From the sequence record NC_103192.1: DNA of 64,000 bases; one strand, 5' to 3'. Position numbers and translations under genes: made by a program. Shown here in pieces: positions 31,227 through 64,000 of the stretch. The notes beneath the pieces were generated by a model. It did no database searches. It was not told the origin of the DNA and saw nothing but the letters and a program-made list of their open reading frames with translations. The stretch comes from a phage. Position 1 is the stretch's first letter. Every line of letters begins with the position of its first letter.

Positions 31227-31564
31227 GTTTGTGGAGAAATATAGTTAACTACGTGTGCGGCAATCCAACTCCTGAAGAGAAGGATGTTGTGATTCACGAT
31301 TTTACTAAAAGATCTCGTGAAAAAGATCTACTGCTAACAAAGGTGACTGATAAAGATCCTGCAGTAGGGGACTGGGCAGGTTTTGCGTTCACATCGGACA
31401 AATACACCTTTAACAAAGGTGACTATCTTGTTGTGGATTTTAACGAGGACATCGAGGGTGCTGAACCTTACTATCAGACCCTTATCGTTGCAGGGTGTGT
31501 TAATCTCTCTGCAGGTATGCACAGTTTGATTCTTTTTGAGCTTGACTCTGAAGACCTCCAGTAG
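31223..31564 (+). CDS. hypothetical protein
   Basis: 113-aa ORF. Confidence 0.5.
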   Translation: MSLWRNIVNYVCGNPTPEEKDVVIHDFTKRSREKDLLLTKVTDKDPAVGDWAGFAFTSDKYTFNKGDYLVVDFNEDIEGAEPYYQTLIVAGCVNLSAGMHSLILFELDSEDLQ

Positions 31565-31625
31565 TAAGATGTGAGTATAAAGGGGAGGCACTCCTCCCCA
31601 CAAAAACTAAGGAGAGCACCAAACG

Positions 31626-48395: not shown

Positions 48396-48458
48396 GAGGT
48401 TGACATCTGAAAACTGTAGTGTATAATATACGCATAAACTAACAGAGAGTGATGTATT

Positions 48459-48650
48459 ATGGTAATTTTTAACCGAGATGGTATCATAGTTAGACAGCAC
48501 CCGTTCCTTGAATACTATCAAATTGAGCAATGGTGTTATGGTGATTGCAGCCATTCTTATGGGCAAAGTTGGGGATATCGTACAGTTTTTGAATCAACAG
48601 ACATTGATAAGGTAAGACAGAAAGTTTTAGAACTTATTAACAACAAGTGA
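48459..48650 (+). CDS. hypothetical protein
   Basis: 63-aa ORF downstream of a TTGACA/TATAAT promoter at 48400-48427. Confidence 0.45.
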   Translation: MVIFNRDGIIVRQHPFLEYYQIEQWCYGDCSHSYGQSWGYRTVFESTDIDKVRQKVLELINNK

Positions 48651-49799: not shown

Positions 49800-50265
49800 T
49801 TCTAAAATGGATTTCCTCCTTTTGATATTTCACCAGGCTGGATATTTTAAAATCCTTAGAAAATCAGAAAATGGATCGAAAACTAAAATGGATTTTTTCA
49901 AGACAGGCACGATAAGCTGCGCTGCTCATTCTATCATTCGCACCGTACTTCAAATCACAGTTCCAGATTTTCCACACACACTCTCGCCCATCTAACAGGA
50001 CTTTCCCAACTTACCTTCGACCTTTTATGACAATAAGTTAATTATTATCAGTAAGTTTTGATACATCTCTCTCAGTACTCGATCTGTTTTTCATTTCAAA
50101 GATTGGATTTTCTGAAAATTTTTCTCGATAAATTTCTCAGTACTCGATCTGTTTTTCGTTTTCTGAATTGGATTTTCTGGAAATCGTTCCAGCTCTCGAC
50201 CTGAAATTTTTGGGGACGAAATCGATTTTTCGTTTTCAGAAATGGATTTTTAAAATTTCTATATG
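49800..50265. repeat. iteron-like AT-rich repeat array
   Basis: about 6 copies of (a)aatggattt(t); three imperfect tandem copies of a ~65-bp unit from 50071 containing ctcagtactcgatctgtttttc and ttggattttctg(a/g)aaat. Confidence 0.6.
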
Positions 50266-50365: not shown

Positions 50366-50690
50366 TGAATGATAATCATTCTCGTTTGCAGAATAACGGG
50401 CACCCCCGGTGATTGTCTCCCGGCCCCTGTTGCCCCGGCTTGTTATTATAGTATCACACAGGACAAAGAAAGCAAAGACTTTTTGCATAAATTTTTAAAT
50501 GATAATGATAACCGTTCTCATTTTATGCAGCGCCCATCCCCGGTGGTTGTCTCCCCCGTCACCGGTGCCTGCCGTCCTTTCGATAGGTATATTGTGCCAC
50601 CTGGCGGGGCCGCTGTCAACACTTTTCAAAAAAAAAAAATTCTAACCTGATGCGCTAACCGTTGCAACCTGGCGGGGCCAGCCTGGCAGG
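50366..50690. repeat. GC-rich repeat family (copies A1, A2 plus acctggcgggg motifs)
   Basis: aatgataat...gttctc...cccccggtg(a/g)ttgtctccc repeated at about 50366 and 50495; acctggcgggg at 50598, 50667, 50863; inverted copy at 59727-59767. Confidence 0.5.
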
Positions 50691-50986
50691 TCCGCGCTAT
50701 AAAGTAAGCAGCTACAGAAGAGGTACAAAAATGAAAAGTAATATAATCCCCTGGAAAATGTAGCGATCAATGCCGCTGAAGTTATCGCCCTGGTTGAAAA
50801 GGCTATGGCGGGAGCGTTGGAACATAAAGAAGAGTACGAAAAAATGGTGGTTAACCTGGCGGGGGGCGGCAGGTGGATTCTATCATAAAAATAATTTAAA
50901 ATAGTCGTTGACAACAAGGTTAATCATGGTATTATTACCCTACAAGGTGAACAACACCACACTAATTAACAGAGAGGATAAAAATC

Positions 50987-51184
50987 ATGAACGCCTACGG
51001 AATTAAAGTACGTCGCAACACTCGCCAGGTGGTCACCGATCAAATGGTTTGCCGGGTGGATGTAACCATCAACAACGGGCAAGGCCTTTATAAATTCTGT
51101 CGCGGTCAGAGCTATACCCTGCAACAGCTTAATCGTTGCGCCCTGACAAAAGGTCAGATCAACCACTGGTTTAATAAAAAATAA
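50987..51184 (+). CDS. hypothetical protein
   Basis: 65-aa ORF with GAGAGGA upstream and a TTGACA-type promoter at about 50907. Confidence 0.5.
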   Translation: MNAYGIKVRRNTRQVVTDQMVCRVDVTINNGQGLYKFCRGQSYTLQQLNRCALTKGQINHWFNKK

Positions 51185-51248
51185 ATATTGACATGTAGTC
51201 TGAAACAAAACATACTGAAAGCACAAAAGGCACTAAGAGGATAAAATC

Positions 51249-51647
51249 ATGAAAACCACAACCTTTAATTTTGACAATGCTGACTTCTCTTTTTCTGATG
51301 TTAAAAGCTGCCGCCGTGATCGCGGATTCTACAAGGCCTATAATCTGGTTGGCCTGGACGATGATAATAATTTGCACGAAGTAGCGGAGATCCGGTACTA
51401 TGCCGCCGCCAGCGGTAACACTCACTACTGCGTTTTTTGGATACACGACAACAAGAACAATAAGTACGGTTATACTGGCGGCAAGGCGAGCGGTCACGGT
51501 TATGATAAAGCTAACGCAGCACTTGAGAGCGCATTAAATGCTATGGGGATCACTGCCGACGGCTGGATCTACGAAGAAGGGTTTTTGTCGGCACTTGCTG
51601 ACCACCTAGGCTATAAAAAGCACATTGTAACATGTGCCCACGAATAA
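51249..51647 (+). CDS. hypothetical protein
   Basis: 132-aa ORF after AGAGGA. Confidence 0.55.
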   Translation: MKTTTFNFDNADFSFSDVKSCRRDRGFYKAYNLVGLDDDNNLHEVAEIRYYAAASGNTHYCVFWIHDNKNNKYGYTGGKASGHGYDKANAALESALNAMGITADGWIYEEGFLSALADHLGYKKHIVTCAHE

Positions 51648-51735
51648 AAAAAAAAATTATTGACACGCTGCAAAATTCAAGTAAACTATGCACAAAAGGC
51701 GGGAATGTTTCCCGCCAACACAAAGGAAAAAGATC

Positions 51736-52131
51736 ATGAATAAGAACGTACGCCGCATCATGAACGAACTGGCAAACGATGAAAAAATTATTGACATGCA
51801 TTTAGTCAACATTTGCCGCCGTTGTGTAACATATAACAACCGCGCCGCAAAAGCGCGTGAGATGAACGCAAAAGGCACCTTAAAGCCCTTTCAGGTGGTT
51901 GTAAAATCTATAACTAATGCAGCAGGCCAGGCGCATGACCACAACAACGAGAGCGCTAATATTGATCCGTCTTACGTAATGAAACGGATCCGGACTTGCA
52001 AGAATAAAGAGCAGGTGTATAACGTCATAGATTGGCTGGACTCCCTGGGCGATGTGGTTTACAATAGGTTTTCTGCAGCTATCGAGATCCAGCTTGACAG
52101 ATTGGACGGGAAAGTACTAAAAACTTATTGA
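51736..52131 (+). CDS. hypothetical protein
   Basis: ATG after AAGGAAAAAG; preceded by promoter and hairpin ggcgggaatgtttcccgcc. Confidence 0.55.
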   Translation: MNKNVRRIMNELANDEKIIDMHLVNICRRCVTYNNRAAKAREMNAKGTLKPFQVVVKSITNAAGQAHDHNNESANIDPSYVMKRIRTCKNKEQVYNVIDWLDSLGDVVYNRFSAAIEIQLDRLDGKVLKTY

Positions 52132-52178
52132 GTTTATTTTTAGATGGCCTTGACACCAGGGCCATCAATAAAGTAAAC
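52132..52178 (+). promoter_or_regulatory. repeated promoter/operator cassette, copy 1
   Basis: tttatttttagATGGCCttgacaccagGGCCATcaataaagtaaac: -35 TTGACA inside a 6-bp-arm inverted repeat. Confidence 0.5.
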
Positions 52179-52210
52179 TAATCTCAGTTAGGCTAAAAGG
52201 AGGCTTGAAG

Positions 52211-52330
52211 ATGAGCACTACACGCCAGCACACAAAGGTAACCATCATCGTTTGCATCATTGGTTACATCCTGGCGCAAATGTTGATGGGTAGCGCCAAT
52301 GATTTCGCAAAATTTTTCTTAAACTTCTAA
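52211..52330 (+). CDS. small hydrophobic peptide (39 aa, below ORF-track cutoff)
   Basis: ATG after AAAAGGAGG; MSTTRQHTKVTIIVCIIGYILAQMLMGSANDFAKFFLNF. Confidence 0.4.
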   Translation: MSTTRQHTKVTIIVCIIGYILAQMLMGSANDFAKFFLNF

Positions 52331-52358
52331 TTGACAAGCTAACTTAAATCAGTATAAT
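52331..52358 (+). promoter_or_regulatory. sigma70-type promoter
   Basis: TTGACA (52331-52336), 16-nt spacer, TATAAT (52353-52358); followed by leader hairpin and the gene at 52411. Confidence 0.6.
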
Positions 52359-52410
52359 ACTAAGCACATAAACGGGAAAACTTCCCAGAACACCAAAAGG
52401 AGAAAACATT

Positions 52411-52761
52411 ATGAATACTTCCATCACTATGACCGCCGAAGAAAAAGCCCTGCAGATCGCCGCTCTGAAAAAACAGATTGCAGAACTTGAAGACAAGATC
52501 GACAATTTTGAAATCGACGAAGACAAACACGACGATAAATATGATGAATGGTTAGACGAGATCTACGGCGAAATCATGATCGGAAACATTTCTTTTCTTC
52601 CGTCGCGTATCCTCAAGGAGCTAGATCCTATCGCTTACCGCTGCGGATTTAGCGACTACATCGACAGCCTAGATATTGAGGACGATGAAGAATACCAGGA
52701 ATTGCAGACAGAGCTCGAAGAAGTGAAAGAGGAGCTTTCAGAGCTGGAAGAAAACGAGTAA
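52411..52761 (+). CDS. highly acidic coiled-coil protein (candidate DNA mimic)
   Basis: 116 aa, rich in D/E (IEDDEEYQELQTELEEVKEELSELEENE). Confidence 0.6.
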   Translation: MNTSITMTAEEKALQIAALKKQIAELEDKIDNFEIDEDKHDDKYDEWLDEIYGEIMIGNISFLPSRILKELDPIAYRCGFSDYIDSLDIEDDEEYQELQTELEEVKEELSELEENE

Positions 52762-52808
52762 ATTTATTTTTAGATGGCCTTGACACCAGGGCCATCAATA
52801 AAGTAAAC
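52762..52808 (+). promoter_or_regulatory. repeated promoter/operator cassette, copy 2
   Basis: identical to copy 1 over about 47 nt; immediately follows a stop codon. Confidence 0.5.
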
Positions 52809-52850
52809 TTTATACTGTTAACACTTAACCAATACAGAGGAGTTAAAACC

Positions 52851-53096
52851 ATGGCCGCACTAATTACCAAATATTATGCCCCTACCAACACCAAAAGCGC
52901 CCGTATCATGGTAAAAGGCTTCGGACGTAAAAAGGTGTACACCTGGGATTATTCCCTAGACATGGAAGACAACTACACCAACGCGATGACAGATTTTATT
53001 AATGAGCTGAACACGCGGATCTTGACAAATTATAAAATTACCGATATTGCCTATGTAGGGGAAGGCGGGATCTGTTTTGTCGGTATCGTCAAATAA
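52851..53096 (+). CDS. hypothetical protein
   Basis: 81-aa ORF after AGAGGAG. Confidence 0.5.
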   Translation: MAALITKYYAPTNTKSARIMVKGFGRKKVYTWDYSLDMEDNYTNAMTDFINELNTRILTNYKITDIAYVGEGGICFVGIVK

Positions 53097-53172
53097 ACTG
53101 TTTTTTCGGTGGTCCTGGTAGCAGGGCCATCTATAAAGATAGTTTATCAACACAATGAAAGGAGAAAGTAAC

Positions 53173-53520
53173 ATGATCAGCGGGGCAAGTTTTATTATTG
53201 GCGCTATTGCTACGGCTTTAATTGTAAACAAGATCCAGGATAAAAAGGAAAGTACCGCCCTTGCAGAATATCCATTTTGGACATTCAACGATAATGAAGA
53301 TTATATTGTAAAGTATAAAAATAAAGAAGGTGACCAAGTAACACCGCGACCGATCCCGGCTTACAAAATGCAGGAAACACTGTACCGCCTGGAAGCGGGG
53401 GGCGCAAAAATTGTAGACTTTTGGGGATACGATCACACAGATCAGGAAGTTATAAAGCGCCGTATCCGGGCTATTCAGGCCAATATCGAAGTTAGTAAGG
53501 GGGGAATATATGAAGATTAA
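53173..53520 (+). CDS. hypothetical membrane protein
   Basis: ATG after AAAGGAGAAAG; N-terminal hydrophobic segment. Confidence 0.5.
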   Translation: MISGASFIIGAIATALIVNKIQDKKESTALAEYPFWTFNDNEDYIVKYKNKEGDQVTPRPIPAYKMQETLYRLEAGGAKIVDFWGYDHTDQEVIKRRIRAIQANIEVSKGGIYED

Positions 53521-53707
53521 TTTTGAAAAGATTGTAAAGCGATCTCATGATTCCGAAGAGCTGCCGGAACGCCGCCAGCGTAACAATAAACTGAATAAGC
53601 CAAAAAGATTTGGGAAGATCTGGCGGAATCATTATGATCGCAAATTACCGGGCCTGCTTTTGGAACGTGAACGACAGGCGGAACGATACCGCCACAAAGG
53701 CAAATAA
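53510..53707 (+). CDS. small basic protein
   Basis: 65-aa Arg/Lys-rich ORF. Confidence 0.45.
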   Translation: MKINFEKIVKRSHDSEELPERRQRNNKLNKPKRFGKIWRNHYDRKLPGLLLERERQAERYRHKGK

Positions 53708-53715
53708 CAACCAAC

Positions 53716-53741
53716 GCCCCGCCATTGTGCGGGGCTTTTTA
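53716..53741 (+). terminator. intrinsic terminator
   Basis: gccccgccattgtgcggggc followed by tttttatttc. Confidence 0.65.
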
Positions 53742-53952
53742 TTTCTATCCTACGAATAGCGCCCCTGGTTGGCCCCACAAACGCCACAAAAGCCCCTACC
53801 TATGCAATCCCCTTTCTTAATCTGAAAACATCACCCAGGGCCGTTTTATGGCGTTAAAAATATTATTGACAGTTATTTTATTTAAAGCTTGACACCTTGG
53901 AATAGTCCGGATATACTAGCCACATCAAAGCAAGAAGGAAGGAGTAAACGCC

Positions 53953-54213
53953 ATGCGTAAATTGAAAAATTTTGATAAGGTCGATGCAGTACTAAATAAT
54001 TTTTACTACTGCAATAATAAAGCCGTTTGGTGGCGTGATAGTTCCACCGATAAAGTTAAAGCGCGCTTTCTCCAGGGGCACTGGCAAGGCCGCCCAGTGA
54101 TTAAAATCTTGGGGCAATTGGTAGCGTTTAAAAATTGCCGCCGTGTTGATGACGTTGAAGAGATTTTAAACATTTTGCGCCACAATAATTTAAAAAATAG
54201 TGTTGACAAGTAA
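53953..54213 (+). CDS. hypothetical protein
   Basis: 86-aa ORF after GGAAGGAG. Confidence 0.5.
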   Translation: MRKLKNFDKVDAVLNNFYYCNNKAVWWRDSSTDKVKARFLQGHWQGRPVIKILGQLVAFKNCRRVDDVEEILNILRHNNLKNSVDK

Positions 54214-54285
54214 GTATCAATAAGTATACTTAAACACAGGCGGGAAAACTTCCCGCCACTAACAAAGAAAATAGGAGAAAATATC

Positions 54286-54909
54286 ATGACCACCGTTAAC
54301 ATTACCACAGGTTACAATTTAGCTTTCGACGTGCTGACCGACGAACAAAAAGAAAAAGCCGTTGAAATGGTCCGAGAAAGAGAAGAACACAGCGGGGATA
54401 ACTTTTTTGCAGAAAGTGTAATTGAAGACTATAAAGAATATGTCTTTCCAGAGTATGGCCTTGAAGATACCAAGGTACATTGGTCCGGCTTTTGGTGTCA
54501 GGGTGACGGCGCGTCAATCAGTGCGGAAAACGTGGATTTAGAAAAATTCTTGCGTAAAGTCAAGTCTCTGACTAAATTTCGCTCAATTCGTCACTTGTTC
54601 GGCACAATGCACGATGGCGAACTATCCGCAAGTGTTGAGCGTGATCCATATAGCCGCTATAGCCACGAAAACACTGTAAACGGGTACATCGATACTACAT
54701 GGCTAGACCTGACCGCCAAACAAGAAGATAAAGTGGAAGATTTGGAAGAACTGATCACCGAGACGGTACGGGAGCTATCCCGCAAGGTTTACGTAGACTT
54801 GGAAGCGGCCTATTTGGAGCAATTCACATCTGAAAACCTGATCAACCTTATTAAGGACAATGATTGGCGGTTTGATGTAGATGAACATGGCGAGATGACT
54901 TTTTCATAA
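54286..54909 (+). CDS. hypothetical protein
   Basis: 207-aa ORF after ATAGGAGA; preceded by promoter and hairpin ggcgggaaaacttcccgcc. Confidence 0.55.
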   Translation: MTTVNITTGYNLAFDVLTDEQKEKAVEMVREREEHSGDNFFAESVIEDYKEYVFPEYGLEDTKVHWSGFWCQGDGASISAENVDLEKFLRKVKSLTKFRSIRHLFGTMHDGELSASVERDPYSRYSHENTVNGYIDTTWLDLTAKQEDKVEDLEELITETVRELSRKVYVDLEAAYLEQFTSENLINLIKDNDWRFDVDEHGEMTFS

Positions 54910-54998
54910 ATAAAGTGTTGCAATAACCTAAAAACCTGCTATATTAAAACTCAAGGGGGCAAGACGTTTGCCCCACACAAAACAAAGAGGAAAACATT

Positions 54999-55379
54999 AT
55001 GAAAAACACTACTAAAGCTATTGACACCGTTATGTTTAACCTGGTTACCTTTCGCGAGGATATGAAAGATCTTCCACGTGAAACAGTGTGCGATCACATT
55101 GAAAACTATCGCAAACTAATCAAAGAGTTGCCTTTAAAACGTGACCAGTATGCGGCTAACGCTATGCTCAACGCCATGATCAAAAAGATGATTCAGTGTG
55201 ATTTAACCCTGGCCTATGATTATGCAGGTGGTCGTTTTGCAGTATATAATCAGCCCGTGCCTGGTATGGGCACCACCGAAGAATTGCACGCGCTCAATCT
55301 AAAACAAGACGTGTGGGATAGTATGCCTCGCGTGGTGGTGTGGGCAGAAAGCGGAAAGATTTACGGCGATAATTTTTAA
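54999..55379 (+). CDS. hypothetical protein
   Basis: 126-aa ORF after AAAGAGGA. Confidence 0.55.
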   Translation: MKNTTKAIDTVMFNLVTFREDMKDLPRETVCDHIENYRKLIKELPLKRDQYAANAMLNAMIKKMIQCDLTLAYDYAGGRFAVYNQPVPGMGTTEELHALNLKQDVWDSMPRVVVWAESGKIYGDNF

Positions 55380-55445
55380 TCAAGAACAGACGGCGGCATA
55401 TTTGCCGCCTTATTGTTAAACAGAACTGCAAAAGAGGTACATAGA

Positions 55446-55817
55446 ATGGAATTTATTATTTTGGCTGTATTAGTTGCCTTGTTTAACGCCTGGATCGCTG
55501 GCAAGATGGGTAGATCCGCCTTTTTATGGTTTATTATATCTATTTTCCTGGGGGTGGTTGCAACTATTGTATTAGTTATCCTTGCAATTGTTGACAAGGG
55601 CGATAATAGAAAGGGTAAAGTATTTTCAGACCTGTACGACGCTCAAACGTTTGTCAACGCATATTATAGTGATCTTCCAGTCTCCCTACGCTGCAGCCTG
55701 GCACAACAAGTTTTCGATGAGGCTAAAACCAGAGATCAAGCCCATGAGATATGTTTAACTGAGGCGGATCGCCTATTTGAGAGGAATAGAAAATATGTGG
55801 GCCAACCGTTTAAATAA
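55446..55817 (+). CDS. hypothetical membrane protein
   Basis: two hydrophobic segments at N-terminus; ATG after AGAGG. Confidence 0.5.
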   Translation: MEFIILAVLVALFNAWIAGKMGRSAFLWFIISIFLGVVATIVLVILAIVDKGDNRKGKVFSDLYDAQTFVNAYYSDLPVSLRCSLAQQVFDEAKTRDQAHEICLTEADRLFERNRKYVGQPFK

Positions 55818-56040
55818 TGCCACGTTAATTAATCCCTTTAGTGAAGATTTGAAGCCAGCCGCCTGGCGTGATGGATTCAATACCGAACGCTTTATTTTCA
55901 GGCCTGATCTTGAGGAATTTTATAACAATGGATCGAACAACGACAGAGATAATTTTTCTTGTGATGTGCGTAGTGATGGTACTCCTGGGGGCCATTGTAA
56001 ACCACGTCACTACTACCAGGAGGAAAGGGGGAGACGATGA
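55795..56040 (+). CDS. hypothetical protein
   Basis: ATG after GAGAGGAA. Confidence 0.45.
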   Translation: MWANRLNNATLINPFSEDLKPAAWRDGFNTERFIFRPDLEEFYNNGSNNDRDNFSCDVRSDGTPGGHCKPRHYYQEERGRR

Positions 56041-56156
56041 CACCCAAGGATAAGCCACGCACCGATAAGGCGCGCCGTGTTATGGTGTGGCTGGAGATCA
56101 TCGCCCTTGAAATATTGTTAGGCGTAGGGATGTACTTTATCGCTATAAGTAACTAA
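56037..56156 (+). CDS. small membrane peptide (39 aa, below ORF-track cutoff)
   Basis: ATG overlaps upstream stop (ATGA) after GGAGG; hydrophobic C-terminal half; followed by a hairpin plus T-run at 56161-56190. Confidence 0.35.
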   Translation: MTPKDKPRTDKARRVMVWLEIIALEILLGVGMYFIAISN

Positions 56157-56295
56157 GAACGGCCCCCGATCATGGGGCTTATCTTTTTAAAAAATTTTTC
56201 TTCTAGGGTGTTGCAATCCGGTCCGAGATGTGGATAATGACAATCAACGGGGAGCCAATCCCCACCAACACAAAAAACCAGAAAGGAGAAACAAA

Positions 56296-56496
56296 ATGAG
56301 CAACAATATCCGCGTTATTAACTTCAAAAAAGAAGAAAAAATTGCCGTGCTGATTGACGGTCAAGAAATCTTCAAGGGCGATTATGAAGATCATCAAACG
56401 GCGATTAGTATCACTCGCGTGATCGGTTACCATAATTTCTACCCCCAAGGCGCTGAGGCAGCAGTTAAACGAATCAAAGAGATTGTAGGCCTGTAA
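56296..56496 (+). CDS. hypothetical protein
   Basis: ATG after AAAGGAGAAA. Confidence 0.5.
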   Translation: MSNNIRVINFKKEEKIAVLIDGQEIFKGDYEDHQTAISITRVIGYHNFYPQGAEAAVKRIKEIVGL

Positions 56497-56545
56497 AATT
56501 TATTTTTAGATGGCCTTGACATCAGGGCCATCAATAAAGTAAATT
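56497..56545 (+). promoter_or_regulatory. repeated promoter/operator cassette, copy 3
   Basis: aatttatttttagATGGCCttgacatcagGGCCATcaataaagtaaat; one substitution in the spacer. Confidence 0.5.
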
Positions 56546-56581
56546 TAAACCCTGTTAAAATAATCAGTGCAAAAAGGAGTA

Positions 56582-56887
56582 ATGATCATGTTTATACCCG
56601 CCAATAATCTTTATTTCTTTGATGGTCAGATCGTAGACGGTGTGGAAGTCGAGATCACTGGATGTCAAGGCGGTCAGGCAATGATCTTTCGCAATAGTGC
56701 CTTTAACGATCAATTCATTACAATGACCATGGAAGTTAAAAAGCTGGACGATAAGAAAACGCTCATTGACTATTCCGTGAAAGATCATCCAGACTACCAC
56801 ATGATCTATGGTGATTTGTGCATTGTTGACCGTGACAAGGTGGGCGGCATTGTGATCGCTATTGTGAACGATGTTTTCTCAAACTAA
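56582..56887 (+). CDS. hypothetical protein
   Basis: ORF after AAAAAGGAG; start 56582 or 56588. Confidence 0.5.
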   Translation: MIMFIPANNLYFFDGQIVDGVEVEITGCQGGQAMIFRNSAFNDQFITMTMEVKKLDDKKTLIDYSVKDHPDYHMIYGDLCIVDRDKVGGIVIAIVNDVFSN

Positions 56888-56904
56888 TTTCAGCAGGTGA
56901 TTTT

Positions 56905-57255
56905 ATGAAAGTAAAACTATATTACCTTAATGAGCTTAACCCCCTTGCCCAGGTCCGCGCCCTGGCTAATACCTTGATTTGTGAGAAATCTGCATATTGT
57001 GTTGAGCTTAACGCCATGCGTGAACGTCTTAAAGGGGGTTACTTTGACATCCATGCTGCAATCAACGGCCTGAATATGGGATTTATACGCTTACGTAACA
57101 GCCGCCGGAATCTGGCAAGAATGGAACAAGATCCGGCCCACCTTCGTAAGCTGGTTATTGAAAACCATCTGATGTTTAATGCCGAGGGTGATTATTACCA
57201 TTTTCACCGCAAACGCTGGTACCGTGGCGGCAATACAGGCAAGAGTGCAAAATAA
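56905..57255 (+). CDS. hypothetical protein
   Basis: 116-aa ORF. Confidence 0.5.
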   Translation: MKVKLYYLNELNPLAQVRALANTLICEKSAYCVELNAMRERLKGGYFDIHAAINGLNMGFIRLRNSRRNLARMEQDPAHLRKLVIENHLMFNAEGDYYHFHRKRWYRGGNTGKSAK

Positions 57256-57290
57256 GGCCCCAGGCAGGGCCTGCAGCGATATAATCACAT

Positions 57291-57324
57291 AAAGGCTATG
57301 CGGTTGCATGGCCTTTATTATTTT
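57291..57324 (+). terminator. intrinsic terminator
   Basis: aaaggctatgcggttgcatggccttt followed by attatttt. Confidence 0.55.
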
Positions 57325-57456
57325 AGCGTTACAGCGGCCTCCAAGGCGCTTAAAAATTTTTAAAGAAGTACTTGCATCAAGCCCTACAATATGGATAATA
57401 GGACGTGTCAGGGGGGCGGCCCCCAATCATTAACCAGATAGATAGGAGTTAAAACC

Positions 57457-57741
57457 ATGGCTATTGTTACCGCTGGCGATGTAGTAGAAATGGAAGCAAA
57501 ATACTTAAAAGCTGGTATGCATATCATCCGCAATGATCTTGATCTGGTCCTCACTATGGTTGATTATAACCCTGGTCAAGATTATCCAAGCGTTGACTAC
57601 TTTTTCCAGTATGTTGATGAAGAATTAAAAGAGGATGAGGCTTATCGGGGTGAATTTTGTAATTTCTTTTGCCCTGATGAGGTTGTAAAAGTTATTTATC
57701 AACCTGGCGTACCTTTCCCGTTGCACGCTATCAATAAATAA
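57457..57741 (+). CDS. hypothetical protein
   Basis: 94-aa ORF after ATAGGAG. Confidence 0.5.
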   Translation: MAIVTAGDVVEMEAKYLKAGMHIIRNDLDLVLTMVDYNPGQDYPSVDYFFQYVDEELKEDEAYRGEFCNFFCPDEVVKVIYQPGVPFPLHAINK

Positions 57742-57807
57742 ACCTGGAGGGGCCGATAAGGCCCCCACCCAACCTGAGATTATGAAAATAAAGAGAGACA
57801 AATCATC

Positions 57808-58041
57808 ATGATGGAACAAATTAAACGCGCTGAGGCTATTAATGGCAATGTGATCTATTTTGTCAGCAAAAACGAAAAAGGCGTACCATATGCGGCGGTA
57901 ATAGTACAGCCTGACGGCAATTATTGGTTTACTGTATACGGATCTTATTCTTTCGGGCGTCCGGTGCATGATAGAATTTTGAAAGTAGCGAACCCCACCG
58001 GGAAGAATATCACGGCAGAAAAATTTTTTGAAAATAATTGA
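57808..58041 (+). CDS. hypothetical protein
   Basis: 77-aa ORF. Confidence 0.5.
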   Translation: MMEQIKRAEAINGNVIYFVSKNEKGVPYAAVIVQPDGNYWFTVYGSYSFGRPVHDRILKVANPTGKNITAEKFFENN

Positions 58042-58119
58042 CAACGTTTTAAATTAGTTTAAGATGTATCACGTAGGGGCAAGCGCCCTATTAAACGCAA
58101 CAAGAAGAGGATAAACACC

Positions 58120-58359
58120 ATGAAAAGCAGTAAAGGTTATAACGGTTGGAAAAACTTTAATCAGTGGAACGTTGTTCTGTGGATCAATAATGACGAAAGT
58201 ATGTACTTTTTCGCCCTGGGCCTGATTAATGAGTGTGGTAATAAAGGTGCGGCGGCTGATTTGATGTGCTACCGTTTGAAACAGGAAGGGATCACCCATA
58301 CCCCTGACGGTGTGCCTTATACTAAAACCAATATCCGCGCCGCTATGGTTGGAATGTGA
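58120..58359 (+). CDS. hypothetical protein
   Basis: 79-aa ORF after AGAAGAGGA. Confidence 0.5.
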   Translation: MKSSKGYNGWKNFNQWNVVLWINNDESMYFFALGLINECGNKGAAADLMCYRLKQEGITHTPDGVPYTKTNIRAAMVGM

Positions 58360-58448
58360 TAAAATAGCTTGACACTGTTTTTTATTCTGGTATAGTTTAT
58401 CACATAGGGCGGCAATAGTGCCGCTCACAACTAAAAAGGGAAATCATC

Positions 58449-58643
58449 ATGGCGCTTAAAAAACTAACAAGCAATACTCGTTGGGATGAAATCGACGGGG
58501 AAGTTTACATTTTTGCCCGTAAACCAGGGGATCAAAAATGGTCAAAGGCTTTTACTTGCCACCCTGCAACAATAGATCTAATAAAAAGTAAAGGTTTACG
58601 TGAAGCAGTAGCGAGAAGTTTACTGATCCCTTATAAAAAATAG
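58449..58643 (+). CDS. hypothetical protein
   Basis: 64-aa ORF after AAAAAGGGAAA. Confidence 0.45.
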   Translation: MALKKLTSNTRWDEIDGEVYIFARKPGDQKWSKAFTCHPATIDLIKSKGLREAVARSLLIPYKK

Positions 58644-58703
58644 TTTGACAATATCGCACTAACCTTTAAAATGTTCTCTGTTACGTATCTTTAAAGGTGT
58701 AAC

Positions 58704-58883
58704 ATGTTCCAATCAATCATTGATGTTCTATCAGTCGCTAACAACGTGATGAACGTCATTACAATGATTAAACTTGTTGCGTGGTTTGTTTCTGGGGATT
58801 ATCGCTATACTAAGTGGCGCAAGCCAACCATAAAAGACGTAGCAAAGATCTTGTTTGAAGCAATGACAGAATATTATCTATAA
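58704..58883 (+). CDS. small hypothetical protein (59 aa, below ORF-track cutoff)
   Basis: ATG after AAAGGTG; promoter-like TTGACA at about 58644. Confidence 0.35.
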   Translation: MFQSIIDVLSVANNVMNVITMIKLVAWFVSGDYRYTKWRKPTIKDVAKILFEAMTEYYL

Positions 58884-58979
58884 CGATTATTTTTTGTTGA
58901 CATCTTGGGATTGCTCTTTTACTATTAACGTGACTCGAAGGCCGTAACTGGTACGGCCTGATTCGAAAGGTGAATTAAT

Positions 58980-59180
58980 ATGAAACGTTTTACTTATGGC
59001 GTTGTTGGTGGGTATGTATCTAACCGTTTTTACAATACCGAGCGTGGTGCTAAAAATGCCGCTACCCGTGAACATGGCAATAGTGTGAATTTACAAATTG
59101 GTTATATTAGCAACATTAGTGGTATGTTTATTCCGGTTGCTCAACGCGGCATGTATTGCATAAACTGGATGCCAATGTAA
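58980..59180 (+). CDS. hypothetical protein
   Basis: 66-aa ORF. Confidence 0.45.
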   Translation: MKRFTYGVVGGYVSNRFYNTERGAKNAATREHGNSVNLQIGYISNISGMFIPVAQRGMYCINWMPM

Positions 59181-59195
59181 AAAGGAGTAATAAAA

Positions 59196-59387
59196 ATGAA
59201 TGCCGAACAAGTTAGAAAGGTATTGGCGGTACTGCGTTATCATAATCATAGAAAGGTCATAGACGATCCTGATTATGTTGATTCAAGCCTGGAAGAAGGC
59301 ACATTGCAAGCTATAAGCCATATGCAAGAATTGCTTAAGCGTATGACAGAGAAAAACAGATCTGATTATATAGGTGACGAGATCTAA
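59196..59387 (+). CDS. hypothetical protein
   Basis: 63-aa ORF after AAAAGGAG. Confidence 0.45.
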   Translation: MNAEQVRKVLAVLRYHNHRKVIDDPDYVDSSLEEGTLQAISHMQELLKRMTEKNRSDYIGDEI

Positions 59388-59471
59388 AATAGCTTGCACA
59401 ATGTATCTGATAGTGTAAGATGTATCACGTAGGGCGGCAATGGTGCCGCTCACAACTGGAAGGAAAACACC

Positions 59472-59675
59472 ATGACTACAGCTAACCGCCTGATCGCCGT
59501 CCTGAACAAAGCAAAGGCTAACCGCCTGGATGTTCAAATCAAAGATCAAGCAAATGGCGAGATCCTTGCTACGGTGTCCGATGGCGGTTATGTATCGGAA
59601 TCATTTTTATCAGGGAGCTTAGATCATCTTGTTTGGAAATTAGAAATTATCGTGGAGGATATGCAGATCATCTAA
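59472..59675 (+). CDS. hypothetical protein
   Basis: 67-aa ORF. Confidence 0.5.
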   Translation: MTTANRLIAVLNKAKANRLDVQIKDQANGEILATVSDGGYVSESFLSGSLDHLVWKLEIIVEDMQII

Positions 59676-59684
59676 TCTTTACAA

Positions 59685-59712
59685 AACAGGGCTTGCAATG
59701 GTCCTGTTTTTT
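59685..59712 (+). terminator. intrinsic terminator
   Basis: acagggcttgcaatggtcctgt followed by tttttt. Confidence 0.65.
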
Positions 59713-59726
59713 GTTATACTTATTCT

Positions 59727-59767
59727 ACGGCAGGCACCTGGCGACGGGGGGAGACAATCACCGGGCC
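59727..59767. repeat. inverted copy (A3) of the GC-rich repeat seen at 50533-50576
   Basis: cggcaggcacctggcgacggggggagacaatcaccgggcctgcc is approximately the reverse complement of ccccggtggttgtctcccccgtcaccggtgcctgccg. Confidence 0.5.
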
Positions 59768-59879
59768 TGCCTGTCATATAAGAACTATAAAAACCGTTGA
59801 CATCTGCCATGGGGTGGGGTAACATTTATCTTGAAGGGGCAAAAGTGCCCACACAACAACCAGGAGAGAGGAAAACATT

Positions 59880-60152
59880 ATGTCAAGCTGGATTAATCAA
59901 GAAGTCGAATCACGTTTTAACGCTATTTGGGATCTCATCGAAAAAGAAGACGGAACATCAAGCCCCTACCTCAACAATTTGGAATTCCATTTTGTGGAAG
60001 CGATGAACGCAGAACATGATCACGAAGGTGGTGCGGATGAGTTCGCTAAAGGTTATGGCTTCAACAGCGCCAACGAAATGATCGAGGCGGTTGTACTCCA
60101 GGCTGAGGAAGATTATCAATTAAAAACGCTTGAATTTTGCCGCCGTAAGTAA
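59880..60152 (+). CDS. hypothetical protein
   Basis: 90-aa ORF after AGGAGAGAGGAAAA. Confidence 0.5.
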   Translation: MSSWINQEVESRFNAIWDLIEKEDGTSSPYLNNLEFHFVEAMNAEHDHEGGADEFAKGYGFNSANEMIEAVVLQAEEDYQLKTLEFCRRK

Positions 60153-60211
60153 TAAGATAATGACACGGGCCAAAAGGCCCACCAAACCAGAACCGCATAG
60201 AGGTAAACATC

Positions 60212-60475
60212 ATGAAACGTCTTGACCAGCTCAAACTAGTTCAATATATGGCTTATCGTGTTCTTGAAGTACAGAAAGGTAGCAAAAAAGAGGTTTGCGA
60301 AAAAGCGTACAAGATCTTTACTCGTAAAAAAGATGATTGGATGTTACGCCAGACCAAAAAAGCCGATATCCTGGGGTACCTGGAAGAAGAGATCCGACTT
60401 GAAGAGCAAGAAGAGATCCGCCGTAGTGAGGCAGATTATCAGGCAGCTTGGGAAAACTGGATGAGCAACAAATAA
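60212..60475 (+). CDS. hypothetical protein
   Basis: 87-aa Lys/Glu-rich ORF. Confidence 0.5.
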   Translation: MKRLDQLKLVQYMAYRVLEVQKGSKKEVCEKAYKIFTRKKDDWMLRQTKKADILGYLEEEIRLEEQEEIRRSEADYQAAWENWMSNK

Positions 60476-60618
60476 TACAACAAGTTACGGTCAGGGGGTA
60501 ATAAAGCCCCTTGATCACATAAAAATTATGCTATCCCTGGTTGACAGGGATCGGCAGTTTTGCTATATTCTTTTTTGAAGGGAAGTTGTAAGAAAATTAA
60601 CTAAGAGGTAAAAACACC

Positions 60619-61038
60619 ATGAACATTAAATCTAATAATCCGGCATATAGCTTTGATAACGCTTTTTGTCACGGTCCGGCGGCGAAAGGATTCGAAATCG
60701 ATGGTAAACTAATTATTGTCAATGTTGACGGGGAAGAGGTTGCAGTATATCCGGTGGCAGACGTTAAAAGCCGTTTGCAATGCCGCATGGATGTTACCGC
60801 CTACCAGCTTGATCCGGTCCGCATAGTTGCCCTGGTCCTGGAGGAAGAGATCAAAGCAATGCACCACAGCAACAAGTTTATTGGTGACGCTCAAGATAAT
60901 ATGAAGGTGTGCCGCCATAAAGTTAATGAAGTGCTTAAAGAATATGGCTTTAAAGATCTGATGATCAAACGTGAGGAAAAATTCCGCTACCGTAACGACC
61001 TGGCAAATCGGATTTTTGAAATATACGAATCATTATAA
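60619..61038 (+). CDS. hypothetical protein
   Basis: 139-aa ORF after AAGAGG. Confidence 0.55.
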   Translation: MNIKSNNPAYSFDNAFCHGPAAKGFEIDGKLIIVNVDGEEVAVYPVADVKSRLQCRMDVTAYQLDPVRIVALVLEEEIKAMHHSNKFIGDAQDNMKVCRHKVNEVLKEYGFKDLMIKREEKFRYRNDLANRIFEIYESL

Positions 61039-61057
61039 TTTCTTAACTGAATTATCA

Positions 61058-61083
61058 AGGGGCTTAAAGGCCCCTTTCTTTTT
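61058..61083 (+). terminator. intrinsic terminator closing the small-gene module
   Basis: aggggcttaaaggcccct followed by ttcttttt. Confidence 0.65.
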
Positions 61084-61099
61084 GTCTGCTCTTCTCCTA

Positions 61100-63600: not shown

Positions 63601-63616
63601 GGCAGCTAATTGTGTG

Positions 63617-63832
63617 TCAGTCCAGCGGTTCATCTACTACTTCACTGAAATCAATGTTCAGAGTCTCTTCCCAACCATCGATCTCAGCACAAGAGTGGAG
63701 TTCTTTAGGGTTTACTCCCAAAGCCTCAGCAACAGAGTCTATATTTAACACCTCTGGCAGGTATGATTCATCGAATTCAAGGTAAATCAGGCCACGAGTG
63801 TTGTCAGCTCCACCAAATATTTCTATCTTCAT
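63617..63832 (-). CDS. hypothetical acidic protein
   Basis: 71-aa ORF with AGAGGAG 5 nt upstream of ATG on the minus strand. Confidence 0.5.
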   Translation of the reverse strand: MKIEIFGGADNTRGLIYLEFDESYLPEVLNIDSVAEALGVNPKELHSCAEIDGWEETLNIDFSEVVDEPLD

Positions 63833-64000
63833 AAAATCTCCTCTGGAAATGAGAGTGTGAACAGGGTTATACGTTCCAATGCACTGGAATTTATATACGT
63901 TTGCCTCTTCAGGCCATGCTTTAGCATGATAAACTTGTGTGGGCTCGGTACTTCATAGTCTGCCACCTCTGAACTCTTCGTTCTCAGGCATGATAGAGAA

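What the first reader, a model, noticed from the sequence alone, without database searches (positions are those of the whole stretch)
50950..61083. Small-gene module with stereotyped promoter, hairpin and CA-rich leader units
From about 50.9 to 61.1 kb nearly every small ORF has its own TTGACA-N16/17-TAtAaT-like promoter (for example 52331-52358 is near-consensus). Most are followed by a short perfect GC hairpin at the predicted 5' end of the transcript (ggcgggaaaacttcccgcc at 54247; gggcaaaagtgccc at 59826; gggccaaaaggccc at 60165), then a CA-rich leader (acacaaaacaaag, caccaacacaaaaaacc) and a Shine-Dalgarno sequence. This looks like host-RNA-polymerase-driven, individually expressed early or host-takeover genes with 5' stability or translation-enhancer elements. 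The unannotated small proteins here (acidic, membrane, zinc-ribbon, macro domain) are prime candidates for anti-defence or host-shutoff factors.
Basis: partly seen in the sequence, partly recalled or inferred. Interest (0 to 1): 0.55.

Follow-up and report, generated by a model that had tools for sequence, protein, structure and literature searches.

The report
Phage promoter-hairpin-leader gene cassettes
This 10-kb stretch of an rV5-like E. coli phage is a string of small genes of unknown function, each carried in a compact, repeated "promoter, RNA hairpin, A/C-rich leader, ribosome site" cassette; related phages swap these cassettes, much like elements already described in T4-like phages.

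Summary
The window is a Vequintavirus (rV5-like) genome, and 50.9-61.1 kb corresponds to rV5 ORF196-164. Of 28 plus-strand small genes, 20 have their own sigma-70-type promoter: 17 matches of at least 10/12 versus 2.0 expected, none on the minus strand. Twelve of those 20 carry a GC hairpin that starts 9-16 nt after the -10 element, at about +3 to +5 of the predicted transcript. After the hairpin comes a spacer poor in U and G (82% A+C versus 52% background), then a stereotyped Shine-Dalgarno site. No U-tract follows these hairpins, so they are not intrinsic terminators; six separate true terminators divide the module. A second cassette type is a 51-nt repeat whose 10-bp hairpin embraces the -35. 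The same architecture occurs in Av-05 (Avunavirus) and KKE7M (Justusliebigvirus). Segments shared between these phages, and several indels, begin and end in the cassettes. The closest known kind is the PeSL cassette of T4-like phages. This is a variant in which the hairpin lies inside the transcript, most likely as a 5' stabiliser followed by an ACA-type translation enhancer. Those functions, and early timing, are inferred. No macro domain or zinc ribbon lies in the interval, and nothing supports an anti-defence role.

The parts
50908..61076 (+). Whole module: 28 small plus-strand genes (rV5 ORF196..ORF164 equivalents), 20 promoter cassettes and 6 terminators
50908..50986 (+). Cassette g1: TTGACA-N16-TATTAT, A/C-rich leader, no GC hairpin
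51188..51248 (+). Cassette g2: TTGACA-N17-CATACT, short leader, no hairpin
51660..51735 (+). Type A cassette g3: promoter, hairpin 51698-51716 (GGCGGGAA-TGT-TTCCCGCC, -14.6 kcal/mol), aacac leader, Shine-Dalgarno site
52130..52210 (+). Type B cassette g4: 51-nt repeat; 10-bp hairpin 52143-52166 enclosing the -35 TTGACA; -10 TAAACT
52331..52410 (+). Type A cassette g5: 12/12 consensus promoter, weaker hairpin 52374-52386 (GGGAA-AAC-TTCCC), A/C leader
52760..52850 (+). Type B cassette g6: repeat copy, hairpin 52773-52796
53095..53172 (+). Degenerate type B copy before g7: hairpin 53108-53131 kept as 10 bp with two G.U pairs; the -35 is lost
53868..53952 (+). Cassette g9: tandem TTGACA boxes, TTGACA-N17-TATACT, no hairpin; site of a 537-bp insertion in L003/L124
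54203..54285 (+). Type A cassette g10: promoter, hairpin 54239-54257 (GGCGGGAA-AAC-TTCCCGCC), actaacaaag leader
54918..54998 (+). Type A cassette g11: TTGCAA-N16-TATATT, hairpin 54956-54974, acacaaaacaaa leader
56211..56295 (+). Type A cassette g15: TTGCAA-N16-GATAAT, hairpin 56249-56263, accaacacaaaaaacc leader
56496..56587 (+). Type B cassette g16: repeat copy, hairpin 56509-56532
57372..57456 (+). Type A cassette g18: TTGCAT-N16-GATAAT, hairpin 57411-57424
57749..57765 (+). GC hairpin with cacccaacc tail before g19; no recognisable promoter
58038..58119 (+). Type A cassette g20: promoter, hairpin 58076-58089; the -35 is a breakpoint shared by seven related loci
58369..58448 (+). Type A cassette g21: promoter, hairpin 58407-58426 (GGGCGGCA-ATAG-TGCCGCTC, with one G.U pair), tcacaact leader; shared at 91% with KKE7M
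58645..58703 (+). Cassette g22: TTGACA-N16-TAAAAT, no GC hairpin; the -35 is the left edge of the 743-bp segment shared with Av-05
58897..58979 (+). Type A cassette g23: promoter, hairpin 58939-58959
59393..59471 (+). Type A cassette g25: TTGCAC-N16-TAAGAT, hairpin 59432-59451 (paralogue of the g21 unit, 94% over 35 nt)
59797..59879 (+). Type A cassette g26: promoter, hairpin 59837-59850, acacaacaacc leader
60130..60211 (+). Type A cassette g27: TTGAAT-N17-TAAGAT (inside the end of g26), hairpin 60167-60180, accaaaccagaacc leader; the leader is the junction of the ORF166 indel
60541..60618 (+). Cassette g28: TTGACA-N17-TATATT, no hairpin after the -10
53716..53735 (+). Intrinsic terminator (7 GC pairs plus T run) after g8
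55392..55409 (+). Terminator-like hairpin plus T-rich tail after g11
56161..56179 (+). Terminator after g14
57289..57318 (+). Terminator after g17
59683..59710 (+). Terminator after g25; also a mosaic breakpoint
61057..61076 (+). Terminator closing the module after g28
31542..31625 (+). Only other type A unit found in the window: TTGACT-N17-TAAGAT, hairpin 31582-31599, acaaaaactaaggag leader

Best explanation
The interval is the hyperplastic accessory-gene module at the far end of the long plus-strand transcription unit of an rV5-like phage. It is built from about 20 self-contained expression cassettes of roughly 80-90 nt each.

A cassette consists of:
- an A/T-rich tract that often overlaps the stop codon of the preceding gene;
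- a near-consensus sigma-70 promoter read by unmodified host RNA polymerase;
- in 12 of the 20 cassettes, a GC-rich stem-loop that starts about 10 nt after the -10 element, which leaves only about 3-5 unpaired nucleotides at the predicted 5' end of the RNA;
- a U- and G-poor, A-rich spacer of 5-20 nt containing ACA motifs;
- a strong Shine-Dalgarno site with a stereotyped A-rich spacing to the ATG.

Most likely mechanism (inferred): the stem-loop acts in the plus-strand RNA as a 5'-proximal barrier against 5'-end-dependent decay by RppH and RNase E. It would protect primary transcripts, and also read-through transcripts cut in the AU-rich promoter sequence just upstream. The U-free tail keeps the hairpin from acting as a terminator. 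The A/C-rich tail serves as a translation enhancer or ribosome standby site.

A second cassette type (type B) places a 10-bp RNA hairpin around the -35, directly after the upstream stop codon. It probably works as a 3'-end or attenuator structure combined with a promoter.

Because the cassettes are repeated, they also serve as recombination seams. Genes are deleted, inserted and exchanged as 'cassette plus gene' units among Vequintavirus, Avunavirus and Justusliebigvirus phages.
For: Shown by sequence analysis:
- Promoter excess and strand bias: 17 versus 2.0 expected, 0 on the minus strand.
- A/T-rich tracts upstream of the -35: 78% versus 58% for the region.
- Hairpin excess directly after promoters: z = -9.9, and 11 of 20 units versus 9.8% of control windows.
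- Narrow spacing of the hairpin from the -10: mode 11 nt over 43 distinct hairpins in 15 sequences, always on the coding strand.
- No U-tract after type A hairpins (0-3 T in 9 nt), whereas the six true terminators have 6-8 T in 10.
- A/C-rich spacer: p = 2e-15.
- The same layout with different stem sequences in Av-05 and KKE7M.
- At least eight unrelated stem sequences. Loops vary freely, and two loops are replaced by their reverse complement: aac to gtt in L011, tgt to aca in L003.
- Non-Watson-Crick stem positions that would still pair in plus-strand RNA number 9 G.U against 0 A.C, pooling type A and type B.
- The type B stem is invariant while its loop, which is the 3' half of the -35, varies. 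A copy that has lost the -35 keeps all 10 pairs.

Mosaic evidence:
- KKE7M shares 52330-52813 (from the -35 of P5 to the -10 of P6, 90%) and 58357-58654 (91%).
- Av-05 shares 58645-59387 starting at a -35 (91%), while its other shared genes are 70-75% identical.
- Deletion of g4-g5 in L002 lies exactly between two type B repeats.
- The ORF166 indel lies between two leaders.
- The g28 deletion lies between two hairpins.

Literature:
- 5'-terminal stem-loops stabilise E. coli mRNA (Emory/Bouvet/Belasco references listed in PMC3997798).
- A 5' hairpin stabilises T4 gene 32 mRNA (cited in PMC8948821).
- ACA motifs and CA repeats strongly enhance translation (PMC3879156, PMC5934652).
Against: - No transcript data exist. 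The start site is placed only by the usual rule of about 7 nt after the -10.
- The predicted unpaired 5' tail of 3-5 nt is at the upper limit of what is known to protect against RppH and RNase E.
- Eight of the 20 promoter cassettes have no hairpin, so the hairpin is not required for expression.
- Replacing native A/C spacers with random ones does not lower the predicted accessibility of the ribosome site: 0.642 versus 0.637, p = 0.34.
- The ACA count is explained by base composition alone (derived from the counts).
- Breakpoints are enriched in non-coding DNA generally, as selection for intact genes would predict. Among non-coding classes they are not significantly concentrated in promoters.
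- Single stem-disrupting substitutions are tolerated in three orthologues.
Confidence: 0.55

Rival explanations
1. PeSL-style attenuators. The hairpins mainly stop or dampen transcription arriving from upstream promoters. Each cassette would then be transcriptionally insulated, and the position after the -10 would be incidental.
For: In RB49/phi1 a PeSL stem-loop reduced lacZ expression about as much as rrnB T1 (PMC2839356). The hairpins here are GC-rich and stable at -8 to -15 kcal/mol. Type B hairpins sit right after stop codons.
Against: Type A hairpins lie downstream of their own -10, so they would attenuate their own transcripts. No U-tract follows them (0-3 T in 9 nt), while the module has six separate canonical terminators. 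The tight spacing to the -10 is not needed for an attenuator; in T4-like phages the stem-loop position varies or lies upstream of the promoter.
Confidence: 0.15
2. Protein-binding sites. The palindromes would be operators centred near +12 for a phage repressor that shuts off early genes. Alternatively they would be RNA hairpins recognised by a phage regulator, such as an N/boxB-like antiterminator or a translational repressor.
For: Perfect inverted repeats centred about +12 resemble the position of lacO1 (own knowledge). One stem family (GCGGGAA...TTCCCGC) recurs in the window and many times in KKE7M. Some loops are A-rich like boxB (own knowledge).
Against: At least eight unrelated stem sequences share the same position. 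Loops differ in length and sequence, and two are flipped. G.U pairs occur but A.C never does, which argues for RNA rather than duplex DNA. No boxA-like sequence lies near the hairpins. In IMG/VR the same GGCGGGAA hairpin is mostly terminator-like, and it is promoter-proximal only in relatives of these phages.
Confidence: 0.1
3. Recombination elements without an expression role. The hairpins and repeats would persist because they promote their own spread, through cruciform or template-switch events and mini-circle formation, or simply as scars of cassette shuffling.
For: Three indels have the same repeated element on both sides. Loop inversions are typical of palindrome-templated events. PeSL mini-circles were shown in RB49/phi1 (PMC2839356).
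Against: This does not explain the fixed distance from the -10, the strand-specific G.U pattern, the U-poor A-rich tail, or the conservation of position across genera with unrelated stems.
Confidence: 0.1
4. Terminators for antisense (minus-strand) transcription that enters from the convergent neighbouring unit.
For: The scan flags three of the hairpins as terminator-like on the minus strand. Minus-strand tails have 2-5 T in 9 nt.
Against: The T runs are short and interrupted. No minus-strand promoter of at least 10/12 lies in the module. G.U pairs on the plus strand become C.A mismatches on the minus strand, and type B folds more weakly there: -13.6 versus -17.8 kcal/mol.
Confidence: 0.03

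Closest known systems
PeSL (promoter-early stem-loop) cassettes of T4-like phages RB49/phi1, PST/T4 and nt-1/KVP40 (Arbiol 2010, PMC2839356; Comeau 2014, PMC4122927)
   Same: An A/T-rich tract, a near-consensus sigma-70 promoter, a stem-loop, and a Shine-Dalgarno site with start codon, all within an intergenic unit of about 100 nt or less. The units are repeated many times in a hyperplastic region full of genes without known relatives. Indels and replacements between relatives have junctions in the elements. G.U pairs occur in the stems. JSE, an RB49-like phage, also has A/C-rich leaders after its PeSLs. Type B here corresponds to the PeSL subclass whose stem-loop overlaps the -35.
   Different: These cassettes are in non-T4 phages (Vequintavirinae and Stephanstirmvirinae), where I found no published description. 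The dominant type here has its stem-loop at a fixed position after the -10, inside the transcript, with no U-tract. In T4-likes the stem-loop lies upstream of or within the promoter and is read as a terminator. There is no DNA similarity to Krischvirus PeSLs. Terminator activity and mini-circles were not tested here.
5'-terminal stem-loop mRNA stabilisers: ompA and papA 5' UTRs (Emory, Bouvet, Belasco), the T4 gene 32 leader, and the 5' hairpin of T7 phi10 transcripts (own knowledge)
   Same: A stable hairpin within a few nucleotides of the 5' end of the mRNA, with no sequence requirement, followed by an unstructured leader and a ribosome-binding site.
   Different: Here the element is used serially on about a dozen neighbouring small genes and sits inside a portable cassette. 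The predicted 5' tail of 3-5 nt is longer than the optimum. Function was not tested.
ACA / CA-rich translation enhancers and ribosome standby sites (Yang 2014, PMC3879156; Sterk 2018, PMC5934652)
   Same: An A/C-rich, unstructured stretch of 5-20 nt immediately upstream of the Shine-Dalgarno site that contains ACA motifs.
   Different: The leaders here are more A-rich than CA-repeat-like, and their ACA frequency follows from composition. U depletion could equally serve to avoid termination or RNase E sites. No accessibility benefit appeared in silico.
Morons of lambdoid phages (promoter-gene-terminator units)
   Same: Single accessory genes that carry their own promoter.
   Different: Morons have no conserved flanking repeats and are usually transcribed against the surrounding genes. 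Here all units are co-oriented, repeated and mostly lack their own terminator.
Lambda nut sites (boxA plus boxB hairpin) and other promoter-proximal antitermination RNAs
   Same: A short GC stem with an A-rich loop shortly after an early promoter.
   Different: No boxA is present, the loop and stem are not conserved, and there is one hairpin per gene rather than one per operon.

Membership tests
PeSL cassette (class defined by features, not by homology) | Near-consensus sigma-70 promoter in the intergenic unit | tested here: met
   17 sites of at least 10/12 versus 2.0 expected; 20 of 28 genes have a correctly placed promoter
PeSL cassette (class defined by features, not by homology) | A/T-rich tract upstream of the -35 | tested here: met
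   Mean 78% A+T in the 20 nt upstream of the -35, versus 58% for the region
PeSL cassette (class defined by features, not by homology) | Stable stem-loop adjacent to or overlapping the promoter | tested here: met
   Type B: a 10-bp stem around the -35. Type A: a stem starting 9-16 nt after the -10. This lies further downstream than the PeSL subclass described as 'just before the start site'.
PeSL cassette (class defined by features, not by homology) | Repeated elements concentrated in a hyperplastic region of genes without known relatives | tested here: met
   Repeat families D1, D3, D9-D12 and D17. Type A units are almost confined to 51.6-60.2 kb. The proteins have no known function.
PeSL cassette (class defined by features, not by homology) | Indels and replacements between related phages with junctions in the elements | tested here: met
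   L002 deletion between two type B repeats; leader-to-leader and hairpin-to-hairpin indels; cross-genus shared segments that start and end at -35 or -10 boxes. Caveat: junctions are enriched in intergenic DNA in general.
PeSL cassette (class defined by features, not by homology) | The stem-loop works as a terminator or attenuator | not testable with these tools
   The sequence argues against it for type A, which has no U-tract. A read-through assay is needed.
PeSL cassette (class defined by features, not by homology) | Formation of mini-circles by recombination between neighbouring elements | not testable with these tools
   Needs inverse PCR on phage DNA
Intrinsic (rho-independent) terminator | GC hairpin followed directly by a U-tract on the transcribed strand | tested here: not met
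   The 12 type A hairpins have 0-3 T in the next 9 nt. The six real terminators in the module have 6-8 T in 10.
5'-terminal stabilising stem-loop | Hairpin within about 2-4 unpaired nucleotides of the RNA 5' end | tested here: inconclusive
   The hairpin starts 9-14 nt after the -10 in most units. This predicts a tail of 3-5 nt if the start lies 6-8 nt after the -10. No start-site data exist.
5'-terminal stabilising stem-loop | Acts as RNA on the coding strand, independent of sequence | tested here: met
   Always on the coding strand; at least 8 unrelated stems; 9 G.U versus 0 A.C; loops free to vary and flip
5'-terminal stabilising stem-loop | Lengthens mRNA half-life | not testable with these tools
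   Needs rifampicin chase of reporter mRNAs with and without the stem
Lambda-type nut site | boxA sequence next to a boxB hairpin with a conserved loop | tested here: not met
   No boxA lies near any hairpin. The only near-matches are 52461 (in coding sequence), 56682 (in coding sequence) and 58912 (in a promoter spacer). The loops are not conserved.
Any Rfam RNA family | Match reaching the family's gathering score | tested here: not met
   Two sub-threshold chance matches only, in 49.5-64 kb

The most novel reading that the evidence does not exclude
The position-locked 5' hairpin could be a 'self' mark. These phages encode an Srd-like protein (window 20910-21962, minus strand; PHROG 1400 'Srd anti-sigma factor' and PHROG 4592, although the best PHROG match is phrog_3118, labelled HNH endonuclease). 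T4 Srd stimulates RNase E to destroy host mRNA (Qi 2015, cited in PMC7430671). A portable cassette that caps each accessory-gene mRNA with a 5' stem-loop and a U-poor leader lacking RNase E sites would let phage messages escape the phage-boosted decay. Any newly acquired gene would gain immediate expression and protection. The shared cassette would then be a cross-family plug-and-play expression standard that drives gene exchange between rV5-like and phi92-like phages.
Probability: 0.15. Interest if true: 0.75.

Novelty: new variant of a known kind. Interest (0 to 1): 0.45.

Why it matters
If confirmed, this would extend the PeSL idea beyond T4-like phages. It would also add a distinct design in which the stem-loop belongs to the message rather than acting as a terminator. 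That would give a compact natural 'promoter, 5' cap-like hairpin, enhancer, ribosome site' unit of about 85 nt that works on host machinery. It would explain how rV5-like and phi92-like phages, which are widely used in therapy collections, gain, lose and trade accessory genes of unknown function. It would also mark precisely which small genes are independently expressed, which helps when designing screens for host-takeover or anti-defence functions. The cassettes could be useful parts for synthetic biology. As it stands, only the architecture and the mosaic pattern are solid; the functions are inferred.

Tried and rejected
1. Intrinsic terminators for type A hairpins: rejected, because no U-tract follows them.
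2. Nut/boxB-like antitermination sites: rejected, because there is no boxA and the loops are not conserved.
3. A known RNA family: none in Rfam.
4. 'The A/C spacer keeps the ribosome site unpaired': tested by replacing native spacers with random ones. There was no difference, 0.642 versus 0.637, p = 0.34. That rationale is not supported. U depletion may instead avoid termination or RNase E sites.
5. ACA motif enrichment beyond composition: not found (derived from the counts).
6. Breakpoints specifically enriched in promoters relative to other non-coding DNA: not significant. Only three indels, each with the same repeat on both sides, and the cross-genus segment edges are specific evidence.
7. 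DNA homology of the cassettes to Krischvirus PeSLs: none. Only the ORF of the rV5 ORF205 homologue is shared with JSE.
8. The GGCGGGAA hairpin as a widespread promoter-proximal motif: in 120 IMG/VR stretches it is mostly terminator-like, and it is promoter-proximal only in relatives.
9. Protein function: Pfam, PHROGs, NCBIfam and a PDB sequence search (the last for g10 only) gave nothing useful beyond the T7 gp1.1 family (g8) and DUF7249 (g20). No zinc ribbon or Macro domain lies in the interval.
10. Literature searches for transcript data or a description of these units in rV5-like phages found none.

Full report
IDENTITY AND CONTEXT. The window is a Vequintavirus (rV5-like E. coli myophage). 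The interval matches about 240 phage records at roughly 92-95% identity and corresponds to rV5 ORF196 down to ORF164. The rV5 genome paper places these genes at the distal end of the transcription unit '10-1-238-164'. With stringent criteria it annotated 33 sigma-70 promoters and 20 terminators genome-wide, and it says nothing about hairpins after promoters (PMC3606486). I defined 28 plus-strand genes of 39-207 aa with Shine-Dalgarno sites. All nine that I scanned against PHROGs fall in families of unknown function. Pfam recognises only g8 (T7 gp1.1 family) and g20 (DUF7249). NCBIfam, and a PDB sequence search run for g10 only, add nothing.

The plus strand of 50880-61100 has 17 promoter matches of at least 10/12. 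Dinucleotide shuffles give 2.0 +/- 1.45, and the minus strand has none. Including 8-9/12 sites that sit correctly before a Shine-Dalgarno site and ATG, 20 of 28 genes have their own promoter. The other eight are overlapping, tightly coupled or promoterless. The 20 nt upstream of the -35 are 78% A+T, against 58% for the region.

Twelve of the 20 units carry a GC hairpin just after the -10. Eleven of them have an MFE of -8 kcal/mol or lower within 35 nt, a value reached by only 9.8% of control windows; from these figures I calculate a binomial probability of about 5e-7. The summed MFE is -157 against -81.5 +/- 7.6 for shuffles, z = -9.9. The 5' base of the hairpin lies 9-16 nt after the -10.

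The spacer between hairpin and Shine-Dalgarno site is 82% A+C (57% A, 25% C, 8% G, 9% T), against 52% background (p = 2e-15) and 61% in units without a hairpin (Fisher p = 3.5e-5). The distance from the -10 to the ATG is 48-57 nt in hairpin units, and the sequence from Shine-Dalgarno site to ATG is itself a repeat family.

TWO HAIRPIN CLASSES AND A SECOND CASSETTE TYPE. Six hairpins with T runs are ordinary terminators: 53716, 55392, 56161, 57289, 59683 and 61057. They divide the module into blocks that contain internal promoters, so the genes are not all independent. The promoter-proximal (type A) hairpins have 0-3 T in the following 9 nt and cannot be classical terminators.

A different unit (type B) is a 51-nt repeat found at 52130, 52760 and 56496, with a degenerate copy at 53095. 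It folds as a 10-bp plus-strand RNA hairpin, GAUGGCCUUG-ACAC-CAGGGCCAUC (-17.8 kcal/mol), which holds the -35 in its stem and loop. Across ten loci the stem never varies, while the loop, which is the 3' half of the -35, does. The degenerate copy has lost the -35 but keeps all ten pairs through two G.U pairs, and one genome restores one of these to G-C. The hairpin, not the promoter, is therefore the constrained part of type B.

LOCALISATION. My strict detector finds one further type A unit in the window (31542-31599). In the remaining 75.5 kb of the rV5 genome it finds one plausible unit (before the RaiA-like gene) and one false positive that is an annotated terminator. Promoters at 40-49 kb of the same transcription unit have no hairpins. 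The architecture is therefore specific to this module.

CONSERVATION. Orthologous hairpins are kept in eight Vequintavirus loci. Structure-preserving multi-base changes occur: g11 in L011 becomes an 8-bp stem with a G.U pair, and g15 in L014 gains a sixth pair. Two loops are replaced by their reverse complement (g10 in L011, g3 in L003). Three single disruptive changes are also tolerated.

Av-05 (Avunavirus) and KKE7M (Justusliebigvirus, a different subfamily) have the same layout with partly different stems. Over 15 sequences I collected 43 distinct promoter-proximal hairpins, all on the coding strand, with a modal offset of 11 nt. Non-Watson-Crick stem positions that could still pair as RNA number 9 G.U against 0 A.C, pooling type A and type B. 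A sign test gives about 0.002, but the sample is small and the sites were chosen post hoc. The result points to function in plus-strand RNA rather than in duplex DNA or antisense RNA.

The GGCGGGAA...TTCCCGCC hairpin is generic in itself. In 120 IMG/VR stretches it is mostly terminator-like, and it is promoter-proximal only in relatives of these phages.

MOSAIC STRUCTURE.
- Seven related loci lose similarity to the window exactly at 58043, the -35 of P20.
- KKE7M shares 52330-52813 (from the -35 of P5 to the -10 of P6) at 90% and 58357-58654 (P21 plus g21, up to the -35 of P22) at 91%, although its g11 homologue is only 74% identical and carries a different hairpin.
- Av-05 shares 58645-59387, starting at the -35 of P22, at 91%, while g10 and g11 are 71-75% identical.
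- At sequence level, L002 lacks g4-g5 through recombination between two type B repeats.
- rV5, L002 and L010 have an extra ORF166 whose indel junction lies in two similar A/C-rich leaders.
- L002 lacks P28-g28 through a junction inside two similar GC hairpins.

A systematic count gives 31 breakpoint clusters. Eight fall in promoter zones (9% of the sequence), two in 5' UTRs and five in terminator or other hairpins (2.5% of the sequence). Several of the 12 'coding' ends are merely places where alignments to distant homologues fade out. The enrichment is for non-coding DNA in general rather than for promoters in particular. The g17 indel shows no repeat at its edges.

COMPARISON WITH WHAT IS KNOWN. 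The closest described kind is the PeSL cassette of T4-like phages: an A/T tract, a sigma-70 promoter, a stem-loop and a Shine-Dalgarno/ATG, repeated in hyperplastic regions and mediating indels (PMC2839356, PMC4122927). All sequence-level defining features are met here. PeSLs have so far been reported only in T4-like phages. There the stem-loop lies upstream of or within the promoter and is read as a terminator. My searches found no description of such elements in rV5-like or phi92-like phages. In JSE (RB49-like) I saw the classical arrangement, followed by A/C-rich leaders like those here, but no DNA homology of the cassettes.

For the likely function of the type A hairpin, the precedents are 5'-terminal stem-loops that stabilise E. 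coli and T4 mRNAs (references in PMC3997798; PMC8948821). For the leader, the precedents are ACA motifs and CA repeats, which are strong translation enhancers or standby sites (PMC3879156; PMC5934652).

MECHANISM AND ITS LIMITS. Shown here: the promoter excess, the strand bias, the hairpin excess and its spacing, the composition of the tail, conservation across genera, the signature of RNA-level pairing, and cassette-bounded mosaicism. Inferred: the start site (from the usual rule of about 7 nt after the -10), protection against RppH and RNase E, translation enhancement and early timing. The T7 gp1.1-family gene is only a weak hint of early expression.

Three points argue for caution. The predicted 3-5 nt tail is at the edge of what protects an mRNA. 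Eight units lack hairpins. My accessibility simulation gave no benefit from the native spacers. Depletion of U in the leader could serve to avoid termination after the hairpin, or to avoid RNase E sites.

The attenuator, operator or RNA-binding-protein, recombination-only and antisense-terminator readings are ranked lower, for the reasons given under rival explanations.

VERDICT. This is a real, statistically strong and module-specific regulatory architecture. The main addition is that these are PeSL-like, exchangeable expression cassettes in two non-T4 phage subfamilies. They are a new variant of a known kind and of moderate interest.

Noticed in passing
window 59747-59765 (+), 50539-50557 (-), 50393-50421 (-): Three copies of a roughly 19-nt core, GGGAGACAA(T/C)CACCGGGG, set in GC-rich hairpin-like sequence. 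One lies between the terminator after g25 and promoter P26; two lie in opposite orientation in the non-coding stretch upstream of the module. No Rfam match; function unknown.
   Followed up: partly
window 50600, 50668, 50855 (+): The motif CCTGGCGGGG(C/G)C occurs three times in the non-coding stretch 50.5-50.9 kb. rV5 has ACCTGGCGGGGCC in the hairpin before ORF175.
   Followed up: no
window 50065-50250: Three tandem copies of a 65-74-nt repeat (77-84% identical) in an apparently non-coding stretch, 49.8-50.9 kb (families D2 and D6).
   Followed up: no
window 61100-64000: No convincing ORF. This corresponds to the 'non-coding' box drawn in the rV5 genome paper, between two convergent transcription units. 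No Rfam match above threshold.
   Followed up: partly
window 48459-48650: A small gene (rV5 ORF205 homologue) behind a 12/12 consensus promoter at 48400-48427 is about 90% identical in protein to genes of RB49-like Krischvirus phages (JSE, GEC-3S). DNA similarity (84.5%) is confined to the ORF itself, which indicates recent gene exchange between rV5-like and T4-like phages.
   Followed up: partly
window 20910-21962 (-): A 351-aa ORF matches PHROGs labelled 'HNH endonuclease' (best match), 'decoy of host sigma70' and 'Srd anti-sigma factor'. T4 Srd stimulates RNase E, which could link to the 5' hairpins (PMC7430671).
   Followed up: partly
window 47410-47949 (+): A Macro-domain ORF (Pfam PF01661, E = 3.7e-6; the rV5 Tk.4-like 'phosphatase') lies about 3 kb upstream of the finding, not inside it.
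   Followed up: yes
window 54286-54909 (g10): The largest protein of the module (207 aa, pI 4.5) has homologues in jumbo phages (121Q, PBECO4, RaK2, GAP32) and even in Caulobacter and Bacillus phages. Some records label it 'YeeU-like antitoxin'. No Pfam or PDB match.
   Followed up: partly
L016 (KKE7M) 4009-4069 and 3586-4059: A Justusliebigvirus carries the type B repeat at about 95% identity together with the g5 cassette. IMG/VR holds the type B element only in two Vequintavirus contigs.
   Followed up: yes
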